A stretch of DNA of 64,000 bases, from contig AP026167.1 of assembly GCA_030295235.1 (NCBI GenBank), forward strand, positions 62,001-126,000. The letters are read 5' to 3'. Within the stretch, counting starts at the first letter, position 1, and each line of letters starts with the position of its first letter. This DNA comes from Fistulifera solaris. Lineage: Eukaryota. Under the pieces are notes generated by a model, which was given only the letters and a program-made list of their open reading frames with translations, did not search any database and had not been told where the DNA came from. Below are positions 30,463 to 64,000 of this stretch, one piece after another. The position numbers and the translations under genes were made by a program.

Positions 30463-32298
30463 GTTCTGAGAAGCATCCTATTGCTCATCCCCGCCTTCAC
30501 GTCGCTCACCGAGGCGAGATTGTCGGGTTTACAGCCTTGTCTCACTCCCGATGCTCGTTGAGGATTCCTCAAGGTTCACGTGCATCGCACAAATGAAGAC
30601 TCGATTTGCGAGAGCAAGTGTGTCACGCGGACCCAATGGAACTCGTTGAGCACTGAGGGCTGGTCGTGCGGAAAGTGTCCCAAGTGTTTCGACTCCAAGG
30701 AAGAGCTCCAAAAAGCAGTCCAACGCGTTCTTTCGAAGAAGCCTAGGGCGGAAGTTGCTCTCGGGCACAAGTACGGATGGCCGATTGGGACGTGGTGCTT
30801 CACGGAGAATATCATGGATCTAAGCGGCCTTTTTCAAGGTGCAGCCGACTTCAATGAGGATCTTTCCGGATGGGACACGTCGCAAGTCACCAACATGAAC
30901 TCCATGTTTGCGGAAGCCACGAGGTTTACAGGAGATATCAGTAAATGGAATGTTGCGAAAGTCCAAGACATGGGGTCGATGTTTTCTCTTGCTGAAAACT
31001 TCAATTCCGACCTCTCTGCTTGGGACACATCCAAAGTGACAGACATGAATCACATGTTCTTTCAGACATTTTCTTTCACTGGAGACTTAAGTGCATGGGA
31101 TGTGTCTAATGTTGGAGATATGGGTGGCATGTTTTACCTTGCCGAAAAGTTCACCTCAGATCTCTCCACATGGGATACTTCCAGCGTCACGAACATGCAG
31201 TCCATGTTTTCGTACGCATTTAACTTCAACAGCGAGCTCGGTGCTTGGGACGTCTCCAGCGTGCAAAATATGGATTCCATGTTTCATTTCGCTGAGAATT
31301 TCAATGCGGATCTGTCCGGCTGGGACACGTCAAGTGTGACTGACATGACTTTCATGTTTGCTCTTGCTTGGGACTTTGACAGCAAGCTCAACACATGGAA
31401 TACATCCCACGTCCAAAGTATGGTAGGAATGTTCAGTGGAGCCGAAACATACAACTCGGATCTTTCGAACTGGGACACGTCGAGTGTGACGGATTTGAAT
31501 TTCATGTTTTCCGGTGCATCGACCTTCAACGGGGAGATTGGCGAGTGGGATGTTTCGAAAGTTCAAAGTATGTTTAGCATGTTCGAAGAAGCTTCTAGTT
31601 TCAACGCCGACGTCTCTGCCTGGAACACATCAAGTGTGTCTGAAATATCCGCAATGTTTCTCCGCGCATTCCAGTTCAGCAGCAACCTTGGTGACTGGGA
31701 CGTGTCTAATGTCCAATACATGTCTTCAATGTTTTACAACGACACCGCGTTCAGCTCGGATCTTTCGGCTTGGAACACTTCCAGCGTGATCGATATGTCC
31801 GGCATGTTTGAGCAAGCAAGTAACTTTGAAAGTGATTTGAGCTTATGGGACGTAAAAAGCGTGGAGAACATGGGACACATGTTCGACGGGGCCGAACGTT
31901 TTAACAGCGATTTAAGCATGTGGGATGTTTCAAATGTTCGTTACATGAGAAGTATGTTCAGGGATGCATCTGTGTTTAATTCCGATCTCTCTAGTTGGAA
32001 TACTTTGAACGTCAAGAACATGAATTCGATGTTCCACCATGCATCCGCGTTTAATCAAGATATCAGCAAATGGAATGTGTCGCAGGTTACCGACATGAAT
32101 GGCATGTTTTACCAAGCGGAAAAGTTTGATCGAAATCTGTGCGCATGGGGGATTCACCTCGCTGGCAAAACCATTCGAATAGAGGACGATGAGTACGAGG
32201 AAGAGTATCCCATGTTCGAAGGGACATCCTGTCCCGAGCAGTCCGATCCCGATTTGTTCAACAATCCTCCCGGTCCCTTCTGTCACGCTTGCACTTAA
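30463..32298 (+). CDS. DUF285/BspA-like repeat protein; N-terminus damaged (no ATG, in-frame TGA at 30559)
   Basis: Upstream in-frame VLRSILLLIPAFTSLTEARLSGLQPCLTPDAR*GFLK precedes the 572-aa ORF 30580-32298. Confidence 0.8.
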
Positions 32299-34920: not shown

Positions 34921-35582
34921 ACGGAATGTTAGACTGGATGTCGACGGCCAATGAATCAACCTCGAGAGACTACCGTAATCTGAAATTGTTACTCTTTGTT
35001 CCTTCTATTAATATCGAGATGAACTGTGACCCAAAGGCATCTTTTAATCGACTTAGTTCTTTGTTGAAGGATGTTTGAATGTGAATCGCTTTTAGTCGGG
35101 TTCGCGTTCCAAAAAGTGACGGAATGCAATGTCAGCGTTTTGCGAACCGCAACACGAAAAGTGAGGGCCGTCTGTCTGTACTTTCTGTACGATCGTCGAG
35201 ACGTAATTCGATAAACGCGTTTTTCATTGACATCAAAAAGCGGTTCTTTTCTCACGCATTTTCCACAACAAATGAGAATCGAATACATGACATCTGCATC
35301 TGCTCTTAATTCATGAATCGTGCATTCACTACAAATAGGAGAAACACATGTTTCCAGGAGTCAGAAGTATTGCCCTTCGACTAAGGGCAGTAGGATCAGT
35401 TGACTCATGTTCGCTTTTTCAAGGAATTGTCACGCGATCACGACTTGTTGCAAACTCACAAAATCGATAACTTAGAAAGGGCACCAGTCAACGTTTGTGT
35501 GCATAAAATAATGAAATACACAGACCAAAGTGAAAGCTAAAAACACAATCTACCTCGCCAATAACGATCGAGTCATAGACCC

Positions 35583-37484
35583 ATGAACCGTCTCTTTTTC
35601 TTCGCGCTCTTTGCATCTCTTCTTTATCCCGATGTGGAAGCTAGACTGCTGGGTGCACAGTCATGCTTCAATCGTAACGTTCGCTGCGGGTTCATGAGAT
35701 TACATGCTCATCATGTCAAGGCAGATAATACGTGCGAAACCAAGTGCGTCACTTGGGCTAGGTTCATCTCTTTGAGCTCTCAAGGCTGGAAGTGCGGCAA
35801 GTGCCCCCAGTGCTTCAACTCCAGAGAAGAACTGCAAAAGGCTGTAGACCTGGTCGTGGCGCGGAAGCCCTTCGCCGAAGCACTTCTAGGAAGCAAGTAC
35901 GGATGGCCCATCGGCAAATGGTGCTTCACCGAGAATGTTACAGATTTCAGTGGCTTGTTTTTACGGGCTACCGAATTCACGGCGGATCTCTCCGAATGGG
36001 ATACGTCTCATGTGACGAATATGCACTCCATGTTTGAAGAAGCCGTCAGCTTTCAAAGCGATATTGACGCTTGGGATGTCTCGAGCGTCCAAGATATGGG
36101 ATCCATGTTTGACGGAGCCACGATGTTCCACTCTGACTTGTCAAAGTGGGACACGTCGGCTGTGACTGACATGTCACTCATGTTCTACGAGGCCGAAAGC
36201 TTTGACAGCAACATCAGCGCTTGGGATGTCTCGAATGCCCAGACCATGCGCTTGATGTTCAGGAGTACGCGCATAACGGATCAAGACCTCTCAAATTGGG
36301 ACACATCGGATGTCACAGACATGTACGGCATGTTCATGTTGGCATCCGATTATGGTGGGAATCTCAGTGCTTGGGATGTCTCCAATGTTCAAAATATGGG
36401 GTCAATGTTCGACAGTGCCATAACGTTCAATTCCGATTTATCAGGCTGGGATACATCAAGCGTAACGGATATGTCTTGGATGTTTTACGAAGCGCTTAAC
36501 TTTAATAGCGATTTGAGCGCGTGGGATGTATCAAAGGTTCAAGATATGACATCGATGTTTACCGACACCATTGCTTTTACGTCAGATCTGTCTGGATGGG
36601 ATACGTCGAGTGTGACTGATATGCGCTCCATGTTCATCGCAGCATATAACTTCAATAGTGATCTCGGCGCGTGGGATGTATCAAACGTCCAAAATATGCA
36701 ATCGATGTTTGATTCGGCAACTAGTTTCAAATCGGATCTCTCTGCATGGAATACATCCAGTGTGACAGATATGTCTTGGATGTTTCACAATGATTTCGAA
36801 TTCAAGAGCGATCTTAGCGCTTGGGATGTTTCTCGAGTACAAGACATGACCGCGATGTTCTACAATGCCGCAGTATACAACTCGGACTTGTCAATTTGGG
36901 ACACCTCGAGTGTAACGAGTATGCGTTCGATGTTCTTTGAGGGCTTCGCGTTCAATCAAAACACTAGCGCATGGAATGTATCCAATGTCCAAGACATGCA
37001 ATCCATGTTCGATGATGCCCGAGAGTTCCAATCAAATCTTGCCGATTGGGATACTTCCAGTGTAACAGACATGTCCTTTATGTTCCACAAGGCCTACAAC
37101 TTCAACAGCGATATCAACAACTGGGATGTTGCAAGCGTTCGTGACATGAAAAATATGTTCAATGCTGCCTTCATGTTTGACTCTGCTCTTTCTAGTTGGG
37201 ACACTTCCAGTGTCACCGACATGCATTATATGTTTGCCTACGCCTCTGTCTTTAATCATGATATCAGCGCTTGGAACATCTCGCAGGTGACCGACATGGG
37301 TGGCATGTTTTACGCGGATGACGCGTTGAATCAGAATTTATGTCCGTGGGGAGCTTACTTGGCGGGCACGTCCGTTATATCCAACGATTCAGACATGTTC
37401 GGAGCGACGTCTTGTCCCAACGAAGCGTCTCCCGACTTGTTCGCTACTCCTCCAGGTCCATTCTGTTACGATTGCGTCGTGTAG
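35583..37484 (+). CDS. Secreted DUF285/BspA-like repeat protein, intact 633 aa
   Basis: Signal peptide, Cys-rich domain, about 18 25-aa repeats, C-cap PPGPFCYDC. Confidence 0.93.
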   Translation: MNRLFFFALFASLLYPDVEARLLGAQSCFNRNVRCGFMRLHAHHVKADNTCETKCVTWARFISLSSQGWKCGKCPQCFNSREELQKAVDLVVARKPFAEALLGSKYGWPIGKWCFTENVTDFSGLFLRATEFTADLSEWDTSHVTNMHSMFEEAVSFQSDIDAWDVSSVQDMGSMFDGATMFHSDLSKWDTSAVTDMSLMFYEAESFDSNISAWDVSNAQTMRLMFRSTRITDQDLSNWDTSDVTDMYGMFMLASDYGGNLSAWDVSNVQNMGSMFDSAITFNSDLSGWDTSSVTDMSWMFYEALNFNSDLSAWDVSKVQDMTSMFTDTIAFTSDLSGWDTSSVTDMRSMFIAAYNFNSDLGAWDVSNVQNMQSMFDSATSFKSDLSAWNTSSVTDMSWMFHNDFEFKSDLSAWDVSRVQDMTAMFYNAAVYNSDLSIWDTSSVTSMRSMFFEGFAFNQNTSAWNVSNVQDMQSMFDDAREFQSNLADWDTSSVTDMSFMFHKAYNFNSDINNWDVASVRDMKNMFNAAFMFDSALSSWDTSSVTDMHYMFAYASVFNHDISAWNISQVTDMGGMFYADDALNQNLCPWGAYLAGTSVISNDSDMFGATSCPNEASPDLFATPPGPFCYDCVV

Positions 37485-41853: not shown

Positions 41854-42120
41854 TATAGTTCGACAAATATCGATATTTGGTTTTTCACGAATATCAATAT
41901 TGTATTCTACGATATAATAACCGATATTAATACCGGTGACCGTCTGTCTTCGCCCGAAACATACAGCCATTTCAGCGGAAAATGCCTCAAACCCGTCTGT
42001 CAGGCGTACGCATATAGACAAATATCGATAATGGGAAAAATGGCACTGCTATAATACGCTATTATAACGTGAATATCGATATTCGTTATTATTTGGTATT
42101 TGAGAGAGTGTCGAACTATA
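41854..42120. mobile_element. Non-autonomous hAT-like MITE, family 1, copy 1
   Basis: 12-bp TIR TATAGTTCGACA...TGTCGAACTATA; perfect 8-bp TSD GTCCTGAG (41846-41853 and 42121-42128); homologous to 61265-61534. Confidence 0.93.
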
Positions 42121-57297: not shown

Positions 57298-58025
57298 GCT
57301 GTGGTTTGTTTGCGTACGGTAAAAATCTCAATTGCGTTCCTTTTGGTTGGTAAGGTGCAAAGCGAGAAGGTATAGCAAGAAAGCAGATACAAAATGGCTG
57401 GGAAATAAAGGTAAATACACACCCCGTCCCAGATACTTCTAAGGCTGTTGTGTGGCTTGTATCCAAAAGGTTAGTAAAAGTCTTTTTTTTTCCAGAGAAA
57501 TGAGGGGTAGGACTTTTGGCACCCCTCTCTCTCTCTCCTTCGAATGGACGGGGTGCACGAAAATAAATGGCAAATCGATTATACATACGGACTTTGGTTC
57601 GGCAAAGCGTTGGTGGAGTTTACTCTTGGTTCACGGTAGACCGCGACGCTGTGTCCGTTGACGTAGGTGAAATTTTGGTGAGTGTGAATGATACTTAACA
57701 ATGTGACATGCGTCCTGTAGGTAAATACAGAACACGAAATAACGCTCGTTCACTAAGTATTCCAATATTTAAAGGAGCCGAATTCGATCGTGACCACTAT
57801 AATATTGATACTCATTGAGTCTCGAGTTTTCGTGATTGTGAAACGATGTTGTGATGATGATGATGATGATGATGCTTCGTTCCTCCTTCTCTCTTGTTGT
57901 TACCAGGTATTGTTGACTTGAATCATCAAGCGTATCGTTGAACATTTTGATACTTGCCGAGTCAGTCATGAGAGCTGATATTAATTTGATCTAAAAACGA
58001 AGTAAAAGCCGAGGATCCAGCGAAG

Positions 58026-60134
58026 ATGATTCTTTACAGGATGAGTGGTTCATGGACGCATCGCGTCGCAATGATATACAGTGTCGGCTGTATTGTGCTG
58101 GGACGGTTTTTGGCGTACAAGTATCTATATCATCACAAAGAATGTGATATGACATGGTCACAACGTCGATTCTTAGAATTGCCTCTTTCAACGAATGAAC
58201 AAACTCCCTATCGTTTGTTCAAATTCACCGATGCCCGTGATCTTCGATACCGTCAATTCTTTGCGCACAACAACGATAAAGTAAAGAATTTACAAGACAA
58301 TTCGTGGTGTAACAGTCACAATCATTCGGTTCCTATCTTGTTTGTGCCAGGCCACGCGGGAGATTATCAACAAGCCCGAAGTTTGGGAGCTCACGCTGTA
58401 CACATGACGGGACGGTCCATGACCTCGAACGAATTACAACAAGCTTTGCAACTGTTGCATTATTCGCAAGAAACTGTATTGGATATATATACCGTGGATT
58501 TCAACGAAGAGTGGAGCGCTTTACACGGATTTTATATCACACGACAAGTTCGATTTGTCGAACAAGCCATTCTCCGATTAATCAATGCGTGCGAACACTA
58601 CGAATCCATCCTGTTGGTCGGACACAGTATCGGAGGATTGGTCAGCTTGGCAGCTGCCAAAGCACAACCCACTTTGGTGAATACTATTGTTACGTTGGCG
58701 ACACCGCACCAGAAACTGGTCACGTATGAGCCTCAATTGTGGCAATGGCACAAGAGTTTAGGACAACCGTTGGGGCCCGTTGATTTCGTCTTGCTTTCCG
58801 TGTCGGGTGGATTGCGCGATGAATTAGTATCGCCCGAGACTACACAGCATCGTTTTATGAATACGTTTTATGGATTCTCGTTAATGGGACCCGATTTCAT
58901 GGAATTGGCACACGATGAAGGCACGATCACAACACCGTATCTTGGAATGGATCATCGAGCCATTGTATGGTGTCACAATTTGTTGGCGCCATTGCGGAAC
59001 ATGCTCGTGATATTGGGACAAGGCCGACGACAAAAACGACGGGCTCGGGAGATTTTACAAACCGTTTTAACAACGGTGCCGAAACATGCACTTGAATTCA
59101 AAGTTTCCATGCATCGTCAATATCACCATCTTCAAGTAAGTCGGGACGCGTTTGTCGTAGAATTCTGCTGATTTCAGCTTTGTTTAACTCTTCTGTGAAT
59201 TTCTTCACGAAAGAACGATTTTGGATTCATTGGGGCAACGGTGATTGAATTGAGCGCACTGGGGAACATTGACTTGTTGGTTTTCTTTTTTGTTTTTCTT
59301 GGAACGATTAAAATACAAGAGTCATCTCGGGGACGAAAGACTTCCGAATGGACGACTACCACTGTGTTGTTGGTGATCTATGTTGTGTATGCGTATTTGC
59401 GTGGAATATTTCATTCGCTTCGAGCCCCCAATCTACATAGCATTCTGGTTGCAGCGCTATCTGCACAGGCTCTTTATCTGTTCTTTAGGTTTATCTTGAT
59501 AGCATTCATTTGTGGTCGAGCTTTTCGGCGAGCAAGTCGACTTTCTTGCCACGTTGCGGCTATTGGAATTGCTGCTTCTATATCCGTCTTGTCAAGCCGA
59601 TTGCTTAAAGTACCACAGGAGACCCCGAATGCATTTGGACTTGGTGTCTTTCTGGTCTCCGCAACAGCTACTCTTGGATTGACGCATCTTTCTTCTATTT
59701 CACCACACATGCAGTCTTTGCTGCTGCGCGAGGCGTCTTTTGCGGCATGGAGCATACCTGTCGTTCTCATTCTGACGTTTGCTGATCTGGTGGTACTGAT
59801 TCGGTATTCGGAATCATTGGGGGTCATTGGAAAGCTTTGCCCATTGGTCTGCGTCCGGTTCCTGGTCGGCGGATTTGCTGAATCTACCTTTAACGTTGAC
59901 GAATCGCTACCAGTGGGGATCATTTGCGCATCGACTTATTATTTCGTCTCTGGCAACATAGACGATGCTGCCCGAATTTATGGTCTTCATCCTGTCGGAT
60001 TGTTTGTGAATCTCTTGATCGTAGCAGACATTTTGCGGGTGTTGCTGACTTTTGGGTTTCGTCGGCCACTAATGATAAGCGAAACAAAGATGGTAAACGA
60101 CCAACAATTAAATGAGCATACAAAGAAAAGCTAG
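58026..60134 (+). CDS. PGAP1: PGAP1/Bst1-like GPI inositol-deacylase
   Basis: VPILFVPGHAGDYQQARSL, TVDFNEE, GHSIGG, TLATPH, SGGLRDELV and DHRAIVWCH; probable intron from ~59136 (GTAAGT); multi-TM C-terminal ORF 59241-60134. Confidence 0.9.
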
Positions 60135-60561
60135 GCCCGACCACGCGTGAATGCCATTCAGAATGGCTTTCTTCAAGAAGGGGCTCAGGTCGACCCGAGT
60201 AACAGGAAGAAGCTTCACTTAATGGACACCAATGCTTTCCCCAACAGCGTCTAGCTCGCCTAGAGCATGCACTTAGCTGTAGGAAATCGTGCTTTTAATT
60301 TTTAAAGGAAAGACGAGCCAAAACTGCTCATAATTAAACGCTGTCAAGGATACGATGCATTCATAGGTCTGTTGCGATGGCGCACTTGAAATCGGACTTT
60401 GATCAATAGTAAGTGTTTGATAACTAAGTAAGTTGTCTCATTATTTAGTCTATTTATTTGTATGGTATTGTTAATTGCGTGTCAATGAATGAGTCTGGCG
60501 CACGTTGAATGGTGTCTTTGATGCCTTATAAATTACGAATTTATTCAGCAACTTTAGCGCG

Positions 60562-60804
60562 CTACAGATCGTATGCTTGTACAGTTCTTCTTCCATTGGC
60601 CTCTGCTCGCCGTATAGCGGCTTCGATAAGCTCATGAAAAACGATATTGAGCTCCTCAACAAAGTTGGACGCCGTTCGATGACCAGCATCCTTGAGAATT
60701 CGCCTCACCTGCGTACCGATAACAAGCTGGTCATCTTCGCCTGCATTAGCAAACGTGATAAAAATAGTAAAAACGAATGCCAAAATCTTTTTAAAGATTG
60801 GCAT
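60562..60804 (-). CDS. Prokaryote-type (alpha3-truncated) histone-fold protein with N-terminal signal peptide
   Basis: MPIFKKILAFVFTIFITFANA then LVIGTQVRRILKDAGHRTASNFVEELN...IEAAIRRAEANGRRTVQAYDL*, with the RxTxxxxD R-D clamp at the extreme C-terminus. Confidence 0.88.
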   Translation of the reverse strand: MPIFKKILAFVFTIFITFANAGEDDQLVIGTQVRRILKDAGHRTASNFVEELNIVFHELIEAAIRRAEANGRRTVQAYDL

Positions 60805-61264
60805 GGAGTCAAGTGTGTGTTATTGAGAAACGGGTGTCTTGCGAAAATAATGAAAGCAAAAAGTGAGATGTCTGCGTCGAGCTATGAATCTCGAGGTTTG
60901 CCTTGCATGCGAGCCGAGCATATTGATGCCCGTAGTTAAAATATGCGATATGCGATGTCGTAGTTTATAATTTCTTAGAAGTTCACTCAGAAGTCTTCGA
61001 CAAATAAACTCTATACATTATGTCTTGCATAGACTTTCGCGCCAGCCTTGCTCTCGGACTCTCGGACTGGATGACGAAAAACTCGCCTCATTTCTTTACG
61101 TGATTCATTCCTGGCGAACAGGTCGATAGTAAATCTGTACATGACGTGTGACCTGGTCAGACTTTGAAGAAGACAGACTATAGGTTTTTATTGTACTGAA
61201 CTGCCCCACCGATTTCGATTTTTGTTGCTTTCTCGAAGCGCGTGCGGGTGGCGTTCTCCATCAC

Positions 61265-61534
61265 TATAGTTCGACAAATATCGATATTTCGATTTTTACG
61301 AATATCAATATCGTATTATACGATATAATAACCGATATTAATATCGGCGACCGTCTGTCTTCGCCCGCAAAATACAGCCATTTTAGCGTAAAATGCCACA
61401 AATCCGTCTGTCAGGCGTACAAATATCGACAAATATCGATATTGGGAAAAATGGCTTTGATATTTGTATAATACGTTATTATAACGTGAATATCGGTATT
61501 CGTTATTTGTTATTTTAGAGCGTGTCGAACTATA
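61265..61534. mobile_element. Non-autonomous hAT-like MITE, family 1, copy 2
   Basis: Same TIR TATAGTTCGACA; perfect 8-bp TSD TCCATCAC (61257-61264 and 61535-61542). Confidence 0.93.
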
Positions 61535-61857
61535 TCCATCACTCATCATGTCAACAATCATCGAATCACCCAACTTTCCGCCGAAGGAATCACCACAACC
61601 TCCTTGAAAAGACCTTGCCAGCTTTGACACCATCCCTTTGACACTGACAAGCATCTGATTACATTCAATACGGAGCGATCTCTCACTGACCAGTAAAGTA
61701 CTTACTCATTGACGAATGCTGAGGAAGAAAGACTGTGAATTACATATTTAGCCGATTCGTTCTATTTCGACAAGAAGATTCGATTTGACTATTCTAACCC
61801 AGCACGGAATTCTTTATTGTCGCGCCGACTGACTGTACGCTTTCTCATCGATTTGCG

Positions 61858-63272
61858 ATGAAATCAACTTACCATGGCTCGCTACACTGTTTTTGCCTTC
61901 TCCTTCTCGTCACACCTAGCACGCGCTCGTTTACTCCATTCTCTCAACAAGCAAATGCTCGCAAAGTATGGACATCTCATCAAGCTGTGGATGTAGCTGC
62001 GGCAAGCTTGGTAGCCGGAAGCTTGGCTGGAGCTATTGGTGTTGGGGTGGCGCATCCCTTGGATACATTGAACATCAAAACACAAGTACTTCAGGCAGCA
62101 ACGTCACTGGAAAAACTGAATGCTAAGCGGAAAAACACAATAGCAGTCTTTGATGATCAGCAGGAAAGCAATACGTACTCCCATTCACAGCTAACCGGCA
62201 GCAAAACAGTCAATTCCTCGGTAGCAATCGACCCCGTCCGTCTCAGCTCTTCGGCAGTATTACAGGCAACTGTATTGCCATCTTTCTCGCAAAAGGTGCA
62301 ACGTCAAATGAATTTCTCTGAACAAACAGAAGTAGCCTTTGTTCAACATCGAGTCCTCCACAGAGGCGAAGATGATGGCGAAGGACTTTCTTTCGAGAAA
62401 GTGGATACATGGCAGGTCATGCGACACGTGTACGAAACCGAGGGTGTTGCAGGATTTTTGGGTGGTATTCGCATCATGATGATGGGACAGGGTTTAGTGA
62501 AAGCGTGTTCTTTTACAGTCAATGCTGTCGTTTTGAATTGGGAAGTGGCGCATGCTTCTTCACAAACGGATTCGCCCACGACTGCCATGTTTCTGATTGC
62601 CGCTGCCACGGCTGGTTTTGTGTCGTCCTTTATTGTGAACCCGGTGGAACGTGTCAAAGTTCTGTTGCAAGCGGCATCCTCATCCAAGGCAGAGTCGGAG
62701 CTCGAATGCGTACGCAGCGTACTAAAATCCGAAGGATGGACGGGCTTTCTGGGTCGCGGCTTGGGCACTACCATGCTCCGTGAAGTTCCCTCGGATGCTA
62801 TTTATTTTTCTGTGTATGGATTACTGATGCAAGCAGTCGGTGGTGGCATCGGAGGATCAGACGAAACTATGATGCTGGCTCCGTGGTTAGCCTCGCTTCT
62901 CTTTGGTGCCGCCTCTGGAGTTGCGTCTTGGATTCCCGTGTACCCAGGTACGTTTTGCTGCTTTTGTACCCTGCATAGCAGATTGTCCACCGAACGAACT
63001 AACGACAAGAAATAGTCGATTTAGTAAAAACTCTAGTTCAGAATACGAACGGCAATAGCGTGGATGAAGCAGGCTCCTCAACTGTGGCACGAGACACTTG
63101 GCAAGTGGTGCAAGACCTGTACGCTGCGGGAGGAGTTGGAGCGTTTTACAATGGAATCACTCCCAAACTGCTCCGCGCTGCTGTATTTCATGCCGTCACA
63201 TTCTGGGTGTATGATACCATATTCCCGAGCATAGAATCTACAATGTCATTTTTTCATGTATCCGCATCCTAA
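61858..63272 (+). CDS. Mitochondrial carrier (SLC25) family protein with plastid-type presequence
   Basis: Three signature motifs PLDTLNIK, PVERVK and PVDLVK (the last restored by intron 62948-63015); N-terminus ...LLLLVTPSTRS-FTP. Confidence 0.92.
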
Positions 63273-64000
63273 GGCTTGTAAAAATTAATGTAAATAAAAT
63301 AACCAGGAAAATGGATCATCACGACGGTTAAGGAACTCATAGAAATCGTGTGCACATAAAGAAAAAAAAAGATCGTGCATCTTTCGGAATGTTCATTCTC
63401 GGAGTCCCAAACATGACTTGACGACATTCTCAAGGATTAAAGCCGGGACATTTTCAAAGTTAAGGACAGACATTTTCTTTGTGTTAATCAATTCTGCTGC
63501 ACATCGAGGCAACTTGCAAAAAAAGCTGCAGAGGAATTGGGACAAATTAAGTGCGTCAACTAGCAATAGTTGCAACAGCGTACTCAGCAGAGGTTCAGCT
63601 AAAAACTTTTTGTGATAAAATGTCAACAAAATTCTCTGCTTAAGACCACATCCGCGAAGACATAAATGGTAAAATCAGAACAAGCAACCGCTGCTGTAAA
63701 AAAGCTATCAAGCTTTTATGGAGAGAATCGATTTAAAGCTTTTGAAGCGTAAATCACAACACATTATGGCGAAACAAGATAATAAATGATGTAAAAATCT
63801 ACAATATTTTGTCGTCCCACTCTCTCGGATCCTTGCTATTTCATTAAGAGCTGCTTTTATTAGCTGAGACAAAAAAATACCTATCTTTACCGACCTGATC
63901 AAGGTAATTTATCATTGAAATTAAACCATATTGTTCCGACTTGATCGTCAATAAAAATTGTTTTGAAAGTAATTTGAGGTTAATGTTGCTGTTGCTTTTT

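What the first reader, a model, noticed from the sequence alone, without database searches (positions are those of the whole stretch)
60562..60804. Bacterial/archaeal-type histone fused to a signal peptide in a eukaryotic nuclear locus
Seen: an intronless 80-aa ORF with a 21-aa classical signal peptide (KK, hydrophobic core, A-N-A cleavage). The 59-aa mature part is only a minimal histone fold ending RAEANGRRTVQAYDL*, with no tails. It is roughly neutral (8 K/R vs 10 D/E). Known: a truncated alpha3 with RxTxxxxD at the C-terminus is typical of prokaryotic alpha3 histones (Bdellovibrio Bd0055/HBb, Leptospira HLp and face-to-face histones), not eukaryotic core histones or NF-Y. The flanks are intron-containing eukaryotic genes (PGAP1, carrier) plus a host MITE, which argues against bacterial contamination. 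Inference: a horizontally acquired histone rerouted into the secretory pathway. It could go to the ER/periplastid compartment or complex plastid (nucleoid packaging, although the +1 Phe of ASAFAP is absent), or be secreted to bind extracellular DNA/polyanions or act as an antimicrobial or effector. I know of no description of such a system.
Basis: partly seen in the sequence, partly recalled or inferred. Interest (0 to 1): 0.92.

Follow-up and report, generated by a model that had tools for sequence, protein, structure and literature searches.

The report
Signal-peptide-bearing prokaryote-type histone in an alga
A small, conserved gene in a eukaryotic algal genome encodes a histone of the short type otherwise known from bacteria and archaea, preceded by an export signal, so this DNA-wrapping fold is probably sent into the secretory pathway rather than to chromatin.

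Summary
Window 60562-60804 (-) is an 80-aa ORF. It has a 21-aa signal-peptide-like N-terminus and a 59-aa minimal histone fold.

By sequence and predicted fold, the mature part matches the alpha3-truncated histones best: HLp of Leptospira, HBb of Bdellovibrio and HTkC of Thermococcus. It does not match eukaryotic histone-fold proteins as well. It carries all five face-to-face (FtF) signature residues and is modelled as an FtF-type tetramer.

The flanks are eukaryotic: PGAP1, a mitochondrial carrier with a spliced intron, and a dispersed repeat. Five relatives keep the same architecture, with a diverged but hydrophobic leader and a nearly invariant mature part.

Still open:
- Expression and localisation are untested.
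- The donor is unresolved.
- Plastid targeting looks unlikely, because only five acidic residues separate the cleavage site from the fold.

Bacteria also encode exported alpha3 histones, either signal peptide + doublet or signal peptide + RRM + histone. I found no published description of these. Verdict: a real and unusual gene, a new variant of a known kind.

The parts
60562..60804 (-). Whole ORF: 80 codons plus the stop codon (60562-60564). Precursor of the signal-peptide-bearing alpha3 (FtF-type) histone.
   Evidence: ORF list. (homology and fold).
60742..60804 (-). Residues 1-21, a signal-peptide-like leader. The n-region has K5 and K6, the hydrophobic core is I7-F18, and the c-region is A19-N20-A21.
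   Evidence: Sequence. Hydrophobicity. Modelled as helix 2-19. The leader is kept hydrophobic in 6 of 6 relatives, while its identity to the window is only 5-13 of 21-22 positions.
60565..60741 (-). Residues 22-80, the predicted mature 59-aa protein. It has a short acidic N-terminal stub (G22-Q26) followed by the histone fold.
   Evidence: The four close relatives share 52-57 of 59 residues with it.
60688..60717 (-). Helix alpha1 (residues 30-39). R34 and K38 sit at the positions of the HLp DNA-contact lysines K17 and K21.
   Evidence: Model. Alignment to 9qt0. HLp contacts from passages of PMC12701072.
60598..60663 (-). Helix alpha2 (residues 48-69, 22 residues). Its C-terminal end carries R66 and leads into N70; both are FtF dimer-dimer residues.
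   Evidence: Model. PMC11390915 section 7. Modelled contacts at 65-66 and 69-70.
60568..60591 (-). The RxTxxxxD motif: R72, R73, T74 ... D79, covering loop L2 and the 3-residue alpha3 helix.
   Evidence: Sequence. R72, T74 and D79 are invariant or nearly invariant in 50 aligned relatives. The RD clamp is described in PMC12701072.
60820..60822 (-). In-frame stop codon 6 codons upstream of the ATG. It bounds the ORF at its 5' side.
   Evidence: Read. Consistent with how ORF listing defines an ORF.
57990..60134 (+). Context: the PGAP1-like gene, convergent with the histone ORF. Its stop is 427 nt from the histone ORF's stop.
   Evidence: Pfam PGAP1 E=1.7e-38. ORFs.
61858..63015 (+). Context: the mitochondrial-carrier gene, divergent from the histone ORF. 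It has a 68-nt GT..AG intron at 62946-63013.
   Evidence: Pfam Mito_carr E=3e-29. Contigs of runs X2 and X3 skip 62946-63013. Sequence.
61265..61534 (.). Context: a dispersed host repeat between the histone ORF and the carrier gene.
   Evidence: Second copy at 41854-42120, 87.5% identical. Depth about 360-405 against about 12-50 elsewhere in run X1.

Best explanation
This is a real, conserved nuclear gene of a eukaryotic alga. It encodes a precursor made of a cleavable ER-type signal peptide (residues 1-21) and a 59-aa prokaryote-type alpha3 histone of the face-to-face (FtF) kind.

Shown in silico: the fold, the FtF signature residues, a modelled tetramer, conservation of the architecture, and the eukaryotic context.

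Inferred, in order of the steps:
1. The leader takes the protein co-translationally into the ER lumen and is cut after A-N-A.
2. The mature protein pairs by the histone handshake. Two dimers then close into a torus through R66, A69, N70, R72 and Y78.
3. The protein has no ER-retention motif and no room for a plastid transit peptide, so it travels onward through the secretory pathway to the cell surface or the medium.
4. There it binds nucleic acid (extracellular DNA) or another polyanion. The binding surface would be the retained alpha1 and loop residues R34, R35, K38, R43, T44, R73 and T74.

The gene most likely came from a prokaryote by horizontal transfer. The donor is unresolved, as is whether the signal peptide came with the gene.
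For: Identity and fold:
- phmmer against PDB: HLp E=1.1e-6, HBb 0.002, HTkC 0.0052.
- AlphaFold2 pLDDT 88.2 with a 3-residue alpha3 helix.
- Foldseek: HLp target TM 0.97 and rmsd 0.6 A, against about 0.44-0.57 for nucleosomal histones.
- FtF signature residues R66, N70, R72, T74 and D79 are all present, and R34 sits at the K16 position (PMC11390915 section 7).
- A model of four copies scores 0.84 against 0.02 for the best control. The runs agree in at least 96% of contacts, and the partner's pLDDT is at least 87. The mark was reached by 21 of 30 proteins solved as pairs of one chain and by 0 of 23 solved as single chains. Those counts were calibrated on two copies, so they hold only roughly for this four-copy job.
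- In that model the partner touches a second dimer through residues 65-66, 69-70, 72, 76 and 78-79. These map to the HLp tetramer residues R49, S52, N53, R55 and T61.

Real gene under selection:
- Four relatives are 78-93% identical, and one is 48% identical. All are 80-81 aa with the same layout.
- Against the four close relatives the leader shares 8-13 of 21-22 positions with the window and the mature part 52-57 of 59. Against the distant relative P0010 the figures are 5 of 21 and 33 of 61.
- The six sequences form one clade, supported 100/100.

Signal peptide: n/h/c layout and small residues at -3 and -1 in 6 of 6 members.

Eukaryotic, integrated locus:
- PGAP1, Mito_carr, SNF2 and DUF285 genes.
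- A spliced intron 2.1 kb away.
- A dispersed repeat next door.
- Host-like GC and GC3.
- No prokaryote genome is held for this window.

Precedent for export: bacterial contigs encode signal peptide + alpha3 doublets and signal peptide + RRM_1 + alpha3 histone. The RRM fusion points to nucleic-acid binding outside the cytoplasm.
Against: - No transcript, protein or localisation evidence exists for this gene.
- The mature protein is acidic (pI 5.56, net -2). The related domains have a median pI of about 9.4.
- Three of five basic DNA-contact positions of HLp are not basic here: K15, K54 and R59 correspond to Q32, G71 and Q76. DNA binding may therefore be weak or lost.
- It has no cysteines and no N-glycosylation sites, which is unusual but not disqualifying for a secreted protein.
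- The signal peptide was judged by rules only.
- The tetramer model may be recalled from the solved HLp and HTkC structures, and my alignment was not used.
- The T-rich leader ends in CAG|G, which also resembles a 3' splice site, so the leader could be intronic in some transcripts.
- Horizontal transfer is inferred from the narrow distribution and from prokaryotic-looking nearest relatives. Most of those relatives are unnamed metagenome proteins, and their taxa are unknown.
Confidence: 0.55

Rival explanations
1. The fold has been kept but DNA binding has been lost. The lumenal or secreted tetramer would then act as a protein scaffold, or bind a non-nucleic polyanion such as polyphosphate or an acidic or sulfated polysaccharide.
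For: - Acidic mature protein: pI 5.56 against a median of about 9.4 in relatives.
- Loss of basic residues at three HLp DNA-contact positions.
- There is no DNA in the ER lumen.
- Schwab et al. note that some prokaryotic histone classes have lost their DNA-binding residues (passage of PMC11390915).
Against: - R34, R35, K38, R43, T44, R73 and T74 are kept, and are invariant or nearly so among the four close relatives.
- Without the G-E-D-D stub the fold itself is net +1 (counted from the sequence).
- The exported bacterial versions are fused to an RRM, which suggests a nucleic-acid ligand.
Confidence: 0.15
2. The hydrophobic N-terminus is an uncleaved signal anchor. The histone fold would then be tethered to the lumenal or outer face of a membrane as a type II protein.
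For: - Uncharged run of 16 residues (7-22), modelled as one helix at 2-19.
- Lys-Lys on the N-side and an acidic C-side fit an N-in, C-out orientation (inference from the positive-inside rule, which is recalled).
Against: - The strictly hydrophobic core is only 12 residues (I7-F18), short for a membrane span.
- Small residues at -3 and -1 are kept in 6 of 6 members. That conservation is expected for a cleavage site and not for an anchor.
Confidence: 0.1
3. The leader is not part of the main protein. An upstream exon would splice to the CAG|G at codon 21/22, or translation would differ, giving a cytosolic, nuclear or organellar alpha3 histone that binds the cell's own DNA.
For: - The T-rich stretch followed by CAG|G resembles a 3' splice site (sequence).
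- No RNA data are available to exclude this.
- Histones normally act on DNA inside cells.
Against: - There is no internal Met.
- An in-frame stop lies 18 nt upstream, and there is no AG between that stop and the ATG.
- All five relatives keep an ATG at the same place and an open, hydrophobic leader. Leader identity is only 5-13 of 21-22, and two relatives carry an in-frame one-codon insertion. That pattern is not expected of an intron.
Confidence: 0.1
4. The protein is imported into the complex plastid or the periplastidial compartment, where it packages plastid DNA. This would be analogous to the nuclear-encoded, apicoplast-targeted HU.
For: - In algae with secondary plastids, an N-terminal signal peptide is the first half of the plastid presequence (recalled knowledge).
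- A Phe three residues before the predicted cleavage site is kept in 5 of 6 members.
- PfHU is a precedent for a bacterial-type DNA binder routed this way (PMC2528193; listing and abstract only).
Against: - The +1 residue is Gly in 5 of 6 members and Lys in 1 of 6, so it is not aromatic and not Leu.
- Only five residues, three of them acidic, separate the cleavage site from the fold. That leaves no transit-peptide-like stretch.
- Cleavage before F18 would put Phe at -3 or Glu at -1 in some members.
Confidence: 0.07
5. It is not a functional host gene: bacterial contamination, an assembly chimera, or a decaying recent insertion.
For: - The window's exact protein is not in the 15-billion-protein collection.
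- The only DNA-like run that holds the locus may be the sample from which the window was assembled.
Against: - Contigs of run X1 join the ORF ends to both flanks: 59927-60587 and 60727-61170, each with 0 differences.
- The flanks are eukaryotic and a host repeat lies next door.
- GC3 is host-like.
- Five intact relatives have a nearly invariant mature part, one of them on a 113,702-nt contig.
Confidence: 0.03

Closest known systems
HLp, the face-to-face alpha3 histone of Leptospira perolatii (PDB 9QT0/9QT1/9QT2; PMC12701072, passages read)
   Same: - Best match by sequence (E=1.1e-6) and by fold (target TM 0.97, rmsd 0.6 A, 34% identity).
- Same truncated alpha3 helix and the same RD clamp (R72/D79 correspond to R55/D62).
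- Same tetramer residues (R66/N70/R72 correspond to R49/N53/R55).
- Modelled here as the same kind of tetramer.
   Different: - HLp is cytoplasmic and basic, and it wraps about 60 bp of the cell's own DNA.
- The window's protein has a signal peptide and an acidic stub in place of a basic tail. Its pI is 5.56.
- It lacks basic residues at the positions of HLp K15, K54 and R59.
- It is encoded in a eukaryotic nuclear locus.
HTkC (Thermococcus kodakarensis) and the archaeal FtF histones (PDB 9F2C; PMC11390915, section 7 read)
   Same: - All five FtF HMM signature residues are present.
- Foldseek target TM is 0.88.
- The named prokaryotic relatives found here are archaeal MAGs (Methanosarcinales, Woesearchaeota) at 29-40% identity.
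   Different: - Archaeal FtF histones lack leaders and tails.
- The window's clade is not placed with the six archaeal sequences in the tree.
HBb / Bd0055, the 'bacterial dimer' alpha3 histone of Bdellovibrio (PDB 8CMP, 8FVX, 9EZZ; PMC10627809, passages read)
   Same: Same alpha3-truncated fold and the same RxTxxxxD motif.
   Different: - Bacterial dimers lack the R48 and N52 equivalents and stay dimeric (PMC11390915 passage). The window's protein has both residues.
- Hocher et al. state that Bd0055 has no signal peptide and is not secreted.
Exported bacterial alpha3 histones found here. I found no description in print (searches; passages).
   Same: An N-terminal Sec-type signal peptide, typically ending A-x-A, lies directly before an alpha3 histone fold. 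Examples are L079 8010-8465, P0006, P0013, P0018 and P0040.
   Different: - The bacterial proteins are mostly tandem doublets or RRM_1 fusions, and they are basic (median pI 9.44).
- They lie on bacterial contigs, next to a TRAP transporter, an ABC exporter or a beta-lactamase-family gene.
- A shared origin with the algal clade is neither supported nor rejected (p-AU 0.32).
Nuclear-encoded, apicoplast-targeted HU of Plasmodium (PMC2528193; search listing and abstract only)
   Same: A eukaryotic nuclear gene encodes a bacterial-type DNA-organising protein that enters the endomembrane system by an N-terminal leader.
   Different: - It has the HU fold, not a histone fold.
- It has a bipartite leader with a transit peptide, ends up in an organelle that contains DNA, and is of endosymbiotic origin.
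Extracellular DNABII proteins (HU/IHF) that bind extracellular DNA in bacterial biofilm matrices (recalled; no paper read here)
   Same: This is a functional analogy for the proposed role: a chromosomal architectural protein acting on DNA outside the cell.
   Different: The fold is different. As I recall, these proteins have no dedicated signal peptide. There is no evidence here that the algal protein meets extracellular DNA.

Membership tests
alpha3-truncated histones (Schwab et al. 2024, PMC11390915) | Histone fold: alpha1-L1-alpha2-L2-alpha3. | tested here: met
   The AlphaFold2 model has helices at 30-39, 48-69 and 77-79, with pLDDT 94-98 over the fold. The top Foldseek hits are all histones.
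alpha3-truncated histones (Schwab et al. 2024, PMC11390915) | An alpha3 helix of only 3-4 residues, and an alpha2 helix 4-5 residues shorter than in nucleosomal histones. | tested here: met
   alpha3 has 3 residues (77-79) and the protein ends at residue 80. alpha2 has 22 residues. The definition comes from a passage. I did not measure a nucleosomal alpha2 here for comparison.
alpha3-truncated histones (Schwab et al. 2024, PMC11390915) | The RxTxxxxD motif in L2/alpha3. | tested here: met
   R72-x-T74-x-x-x-x-D79 is present in the ORF. In 50 aligned relatives D79 is invariant, and R72 and T74 are conserved in at least 90%.
Face-to-face (FtF) subfamily | Conserved dimer-dimer residues at HMM positions 48 (R) and 52 (N). 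| tested here: met
   R66 and N70 have the right spacing to R72/T74/D79 (positions 54/56/61). Source: section 7 of PMC11390915. I did not see the HMM logo itself, which is in a supplement.
Face-to-face (FtF) subfamily | A torus-shaped homotetramer in which both sides of each dimer interact. | tested here: inconclusive
   The four-copy model scores 0.84 against 0.02 for the best control. The partner touches one copy by the handshake and another through 65-66, 69-70, 72, 76 and 78-79. However, only one chain is scored, like complexes have been solved (so the pass may come from memory), and no experiment exists.
Face-to-face (FtF) subfamily | A conserved alpha1 lysine at HMM position 16. | tested here: met
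   Position 34 is Arg, a conservative replacement. K38 occupies HMM position 20.
Pfam CBFD_NFYB_HMF / DUF1931; NCBIfam archaea_histone | A score at or above the curated cut-off. | tested here: not met
   Scores against cut-offs: 14.5 against 21.4 bits, 14.8 against 21.8 bits, and 18.1 against 50 bits. These profiles do not capture alpha3 histones well. The named relatives P0025, P0040 and P0067 also fall below them.
Eukaryotic core histones / NF-Y / TAF / CENP-S/X | A closer match to these than to prokaryotic histones. | tested here: not met
   No such chain scored E<=10 in phmmer against PDB. Their Foldseek TM is about 0.44-0.57, against 0.81-0.97 for alpha3 histones.
Cleavable ER (Sec61) signal peptide | A positive n-region, a hydrophobic h-region of about 7-15 residues, and small uncharged residues at -3 and -1. 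| tested here: met
   K5 and K6; I7-F18 (12 residues); A19 and A21. The feature is kept in 6 of 6 relatives. This was tested by rule only, with no SignalP; the rule itself is recalled knowledge.
Cleavable ER (Sec61) signal peptide | Actual translocation and cleavage. | not testable with these tools
   This needs localisation or N-terminal sequencing.
Bipartite plastid presequence of algae with secondary plastids (ASAFAP-type) | An aromatic residue or Leu at +1 of the signal-peptide cleavage site, followed by a transit-peptide-like stretch. | tested here: not met
   +1 is Gly (Lys in P0010). Only five residues (G-E-D-D-Q) precede the fold. The motif definition is recalled. ASAFind and HECTAR were not available.
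ER-resident lumenal proteins | A C-terminal K/HDEL-type retrieval signal. | tested here: not met
   The C-terminus is A-Y-D-L. The D-L is the family-wide structural end. The motif definition is recalled.

The most novel reading that the evidence does not exclude
Exported alpha3 histones are an unrecognised functional class that spans bacteria and eukaryotic algae. In bacteria they occur as signal peptide + doublets and as signal peptide + RRM + histone. In the alga they occur as this signal peptide + FtF singlet. On this reading the algal protein is secreted as a torus-shaped tetramer that wraps or bridges extracellular DNA, for example in the cell's mucilage or biofilm, in the capture of DNA as a nutrient, or against bacteria and viruses. 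It may have been acquired from a bacterium that already exported it. That would make it the first histone-fold protein in any eukaryote whose normal workplace is outside the cell.
Probability: 0.25. Interest if true: 0.88.

Novelty: new variant of a known kind. Interest (0 to 1): 0.72.

Why it matters
Alpha3 histones were recognised only in 2023-2025, as DNA-bending or DNA-wrapping chromosome proteins of bacteria, archaea and some viruses. [quoted passage not shown]

A conserved eukaryotic nuclear gene that puts an FtF histone behind an ER signal peptide would have three consequences:
- It would extend the family into eukaryotes by horizontal transfer.
- It would separate the histone fold from chromatin.
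- Together with the exported bacterial doublets and RRM fusions seen here, it would point to a role for histone folds in extracytoplasmic nucleic-acid or polyanion biology.

The gene is small and intronless, and recombinant alpha3 histones behave well in vitro, so the hypothesis is cheap to test. It also matters for annotation: two relatives carry the label 'histone H3/H4', which would wrongly count them as chromatin proteins.

Tried and rejected
Expression:
- No RNA holder was listed.
- Of the three runs laid, X1 behaves like DNA and covers all 30 bins. X2 and X3 look spliced but cover only the carrier gene, in 9 of 30 bins. This is no evidence either way on expression of the ORF.

Whole genome: none is held for this window.

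Searches for related loci:
- Alignments A1 and A2 were too diverse for the tool.
- The family alignment A3 found 6 archaeal loci in genome contigs, none in metagenome contigs and none in viral contigs.
- The nearest tree neighbours P0025 and P0067 also gave nothing in viral contigs.
- Phage and plasmid tblastn found no match.
- PHROGs gave only E=0.4.
- Rfam on 58000-64000 found nothing.

Other leads:
- The ESM Atlas gave only weak leads, scoring 0.82-0.83, from bacterial, phage, Bdellovibrionota and Myxococcota clusters.
- Cluster look-ups gave no organism names, so the taxa of the nearest relatives stay unknown.
- 'histone H3/H4' proved to be a generic label that is also applied to metagenome proteins.
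- P0010 has no further relatives in the word-indexed search.
- Earlier findings of this scan held nothing on this sequence or genome.

Donor:
- The quick tree left the clade in a polytomy.
- The careful tree puts single-domain proteins without a signal peptide nearest, with weak support of 78/20 and then 80/91.
- Forcing the clade together with the 30-row bacterial clade that holds the exported forms is not rejected: p-AU 0.69 on the quick tree and 0.32 on the careful tree.

Readings considered and set aside: the plastid nucleoid, an ER-resident protein, and a chance or shadow ORF (the antisense ORF at 60577-60939 has no support). Reasons are given under the rivals and the membership test.

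Literature: searches, and term look-ups, found no signal-peptide-bearing or eukaryotic alpha3 histone. The supplements of PMC11390915 and PMC12701072 (HMM logos, taxon tables, the 'eukaryotic-like' set discarded as contamination) were not opened and could hold such sequences.
Full report
**1. The observation**

The ORF listing gives an 80-aa ATG-initiated ORF at 60562..60804 on the minus strand. An in-frame stop lies six codons upstream, at 60820-60822 (read). The ORF has no internal Met. tblastn of the protein against the window finds only this copy.

The first 21 residues have the layout of a secretory signal peptide:
- Lys-Lys at positions 5-6.
- An uncharged run at 7-22, with a peak 9-residue Kyte-Doolittle mean of 2.94.
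- Ala at -3 and -1.

The remaining 59 residues have 8 K/R against 10 D/E and a pI of 5.56.

**2. What the mature part is**

Curated profiles see it only weakly:
- Pfam DUF1931 scores 14.8 bits (cut-off 21.8) and CBFD_NFYB_HMF 14.5 bits (cut-off 21.4).
- NCBIfam archaea_histone scores 18.1 bits (cut-off 50).

Direct comparison is clear. phmmer against all PDB chains returns 7 distinct sequences at E<=10:
- 9qt0 at 1.1e-6. This is HLp of Leptospira perolatii, identified from passages of PMC12701072.
- HBb/Bd0055 (8cmp, 8fvx) at 0.002.
- HTkC (9f2c) at 0.0052.
- The Methanopyrus doublet 1f1e at 0.018.
- Two RNase III chains at 0.89, which are noise.

An AlphaFold2 model built on a 50-sequence alignment has mean pLDDT 88.2. 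It shows helices at 2-19 (the leader), 30-39, 48-69 and a three-residue helix at 77-79. Foldseek against the PDB ranks the matches as follows:
- HLp first: target TM 0.97, rmsd 0.6 A over 56 columns.
- HBb: 0.81-0.85.
- HTkC: 0.88.
- Nucleosomal archaeal and eukaryotic histones: about 0.44-0.57.

The fold is therefore the alpha3-truncated histone fold as Schwab et al. define it, with an alpha3 helix of 3-4 residues, a shortened alpha2 and the RxTxxxxD motif (passages).

**3. Subtype**

Section 7 of PMC11390915 (read in full) names the FtF signature as HMM positions 48 (R), 52 (N), 54 (R), 56 (T) and 61 (D), plus a lysine at position 16.
- With R72/T74/D79 as positions 54/56/61, the window's protein has R66 and N70 at positions 48 and 52.
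- It has R34 at position 16.
- 'Bacterial dimer' histones such as HBb lack the position 48 and 52 residues.

Using the alignment (HLp paper numbering + 17), the HLp residues map as follows:

| HLp role | HLp residues | Window residues |
|---|---|---|
| Tetramer | R49, S52, N53, R55, T61, F63 | R66, A69, N70, R72, Y78, L80 |
| DNA contact | K15, K17, K21, T27, G29, K54, T56, T57, R59 | Q32, R34, K38, T44, S46, G71, R73, T74, Q76 |

Two of five basic contacts are kept, three are lost, and one is gained (R73).

A model of four copies of residues 22-80 gave these results:
- Score 0.84 against 0.02 for the best of three controls.
- The runs agree in at least 96% of contacts, and the partner's pLDDT is at least 87.
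- The mark was reached by 21 of 30 proteins solved as pairs of one chain and by 0 of 23 solved as single chains. That calibration used two copies only.
- The scored copy touches one copy along the whole fold (the handshake).
- It touches another copy through 65-66, 69-70, 72, 76 and 78-79, which is the FtF interface.

Because HLp and HTkC tetramers are already solved, this pass may come from memory. It shows likeness, not binding.

**4. Is it a real gene of a eukaryote?**

Pfam finds PGAP1 (57990-59171), Mito_carr (61798-63015), an SNF2 ATPase and two DUF285 arrays in the window. According to passages of PMC11992049, DUF285 is multi-copy in eukaryotic phytoplankton, some bacteria and giant viruses. 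No prokaryote genome is held for the window.

Laying public contigs gave the following:
- Run X1 behaves like DNA. It covers all 30 bins. Its contigs join the ORF's 3' end to the PGAP1 side (59927-60587, 0 differences) and its 5' end to the other side (60727-61170, 0 differences).
- X1 may be the window's own source sample, so it is not independent support.
- Runs X2 and X3 hold a copy of the carrier gene about 90% identical to the window. That copy skips 62946-63013 (GT..AG), which is a spliced intron.

The stretch 61206-61553 has depth of about 360-405, against about 12-50 elsewhere. It has a second copy at 41854-42120 that is 87.5% identical. This makes it a dispersed host repeat. Its terminal inverted repeats are weak, so 'MITE' is not established.

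The ORF has GC 0.44 and GC3 0.42. Four of the five neighbouring genes compared have GC3 of 0.43-0.46, and a DUF285 gene has 0.57.

**5. Relatives**

The word-indexed search finds four proteins of 80-81 aa at 78-93% identity. One lies on a 113,702-nt contig.

The exhaustive HMMER search of 1.84 billion representatives finds 90 proteins at E<=1e-3. Only P0003 and P0010 share the window's layout; P0010 is 81 aa, 48% identical and also has a leader.

Identity to the window, leader against mature part:

| Relative | Leader | Mature part |
|---|---|---|
| P0001 | 13/21 | 57/59 |
| P0002 | 11/21 | 57/59 |
| P0003 | 11/22 | 52/59 |
| P0004 | 8/22 | 55/59 |
| P0010 | 5/21 | 33/61 |

All six leaders stay hydrophobic, with maximum 9-residue means of 2.67-3.09, and keep small residues at -3 and -1. 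This is the pattern of a functional signal peptide in front of a constrained domain. It is not the pattern of an intron or an untranslated region.

**6. Origin**

Of the other 88 hits, 35 have two matched stretches and so are tandem doublets. My heuristic for a hydrophobic leader is a 10-residue Kyte-Doolittle mean of at least 2.3 upstream of the first domain. By it, 11 of the 88 have such a leader.

The only named relatives are six archaeal MAG loci, three Methanosarcinales and three Woesearchaeota, at 29-40% identity. They were found from 190 pattern matches.

A maximum-likelihood tree was built from 148 domains over 57 columns:
- The six algal sequences form one clade, with SH-aLRT 97 in the quick tree and 100/100 in the careful tree.
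- Their nearest neighbours are unnamed single-domain proteins without leaders, supported 78/20 and then 80/91.
- Holding the clade together with the 30-row bacterial clade that contains most exported forms costs 11.6 log-likelihood units and is not rejected (p-AU 0.32). On the quick tree the p-value was 0.69.

With so few columns the donor cannot be named. No viral, phage or plasmid relative was found.

Horizontal acquisition from a prokaryote is therefore the best reading. It rests on the very narrow eukaryotic distribution and a family that is otherwise of prokaryotic type. It is an inference, not a demonstrated event.

**7. Where does it go, and what does it do?**

Shown: the leader's features.

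Inferred: ER import and cleavage after A21.

Between the predicted cleavage site and the first fold residue there are five residues, three of them acidic. The +1 residue is Gly. This does not fit the bipartite plastid presequence of algae with secondary plastids, and there is no K/HDEL-type end. Both motif definitions are recalled.

The default fate is onward secretory traffic. I commit to a secreted or surface-exposed FtF tetramer that binds nucleic acid or another polyanion, with moderate confidence.

For nucleic-acid binding:
- The alpha1/L1/L2 residues are kept.
- Bacterial exported relatives are fused to an RRM_1 domain. P0053 scores E=1.6e-14, P0078 5e-9, P0033 3.2e-6 and P0039 2.8e-5.

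Against it: the acidic pI, 5.56 against a median of about 9.4 in 142 related domains, and the three lost basic contacts.

**8. Exported bacterial alpha3 histones (a by-product)**

A scan with the signal-peptide-bearing subset returned 80 loci. Nine have a hydrophobic stretch upstream of the fold. One of them, L019, looks like non-coding read-through, which leaves eight:
- Four are signal peptide + RRM + histone: L034, L037, L061 and L065.
- Four are signal peptide + doublet: L078 and L079 (identical), L083 and L086.

L079 lies between a beta-lactamase-family gene and ABC exporters. L037 lies next to a TRAP transporter (DctM, DctP, TAtT). These are bacterial contexts.

None of the papers I consulted mentions signal peptides on histone folds, apart from the remark that Bd0055 lacks one.

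**9. Comparison and novelty**

The protein is a member of the alpha3 histone family and, by signature, of the FtF subfamily. The tetramer criterion is modelled only.

What is new is the host (a eukaryotic nuclear genome), the signal peptide and the acidic charge. Searches of 8.1 million PMC papers and 0.36 million preprints returned no description.

Schwab et al. discarded 'eukaryotic-like' sequences as likely contamination (passage). I did not open their supplementary tables, which could hold such proteins.

I rate it a new variant of a known kind, with interest 0.72. It is surprising to histone and chromatin specialists and directly testable, but it rests entirely on in-silico evidence for targeting and function.

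Noticed in passing
L079:8010-8465 (+); also L078, L083, L086; proteins P0006, P0013, P0017, P0018, P0019, P0027, P0040: Bacterial metagenome contigs encode alpha3 histone doublets (one singlet, P0040) behind Sec-type signal peptides that typically end A-x-A just before a conserved basic stretch. L079 lies between a beta-lactamase-family gene and two ABC exporters. In several of these proteins the first domain has a degenerate L2 motif. I found no description of exported histone folds in the papers I consulted.
   Followed up: partly
L037:1224-1412 and upstream; L034, L061, L065; proteins P0033, P0039, P0053, P0078: A second bacterial architecture: signal peptide + RRM_1 domain (above Pfam's cut-off) + one or two alpha3 histone domains. 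L037 lies next to a TRAP transporter operon (DctM, DctP, TAtT). It looks like an exported module with two nucleic-acid-binding domains.
   Followed up: partly
proteins P0005-P0009, P0011-P0024 and others: 35 of the 90 hits are tandem doublets of the alpha3 fold, 114-256 aa long. They are distinct from the DUF1931 pseudodimers. In several cases the two halves of a doublet are each other's nearest relatives in the tree (for example P0009, P0020, P0057), which suggests repeated independent duplications.
   Followed up: no
window 61265-61534 and 41854-42120: A dispersed repeat of about 270 nt, rich in the words ATATCG/CGATAT. The two copies in the window are 87.5% identical, and depth in the DNA-like run X1 is about 20-fold above the flanks. 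Only weak inverted repeats were found, so its class is undetermined.
   Followed up: partly
window 30562-32298 and 35565-37484 (+): Two large genes consist of 6-7 DUF285 repeats each (Pfam E=2e-188 and 6e-210). The family is reported as multi-copy in eukaryotic phytoplankton, some bacteria and giant viruses. One of the two has GC3 of 0.57, higher than the four other window genes compared (0.43-0.46); the other was not measured.
   Followed up: no
window 61649-63097: Runs X2 and X3 hold a spliced contig of 1.6-1.7 kb that is about 90% identical to the carrier gene. It skips 62946-63013 (GT..AG), and a 68-nt stretch at 62271-62338 is replaced by diverged sequence of the same length. It is probably a transcript of a paralogue, a second haplotype or a sister strain.
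   Followed up: no
window 60577-60939 (+): A 120-aa TTG-initiated ORF runs antisense across the histone ORF. It has no support from homology and is probably a shadow ORF.
   Followed up: no
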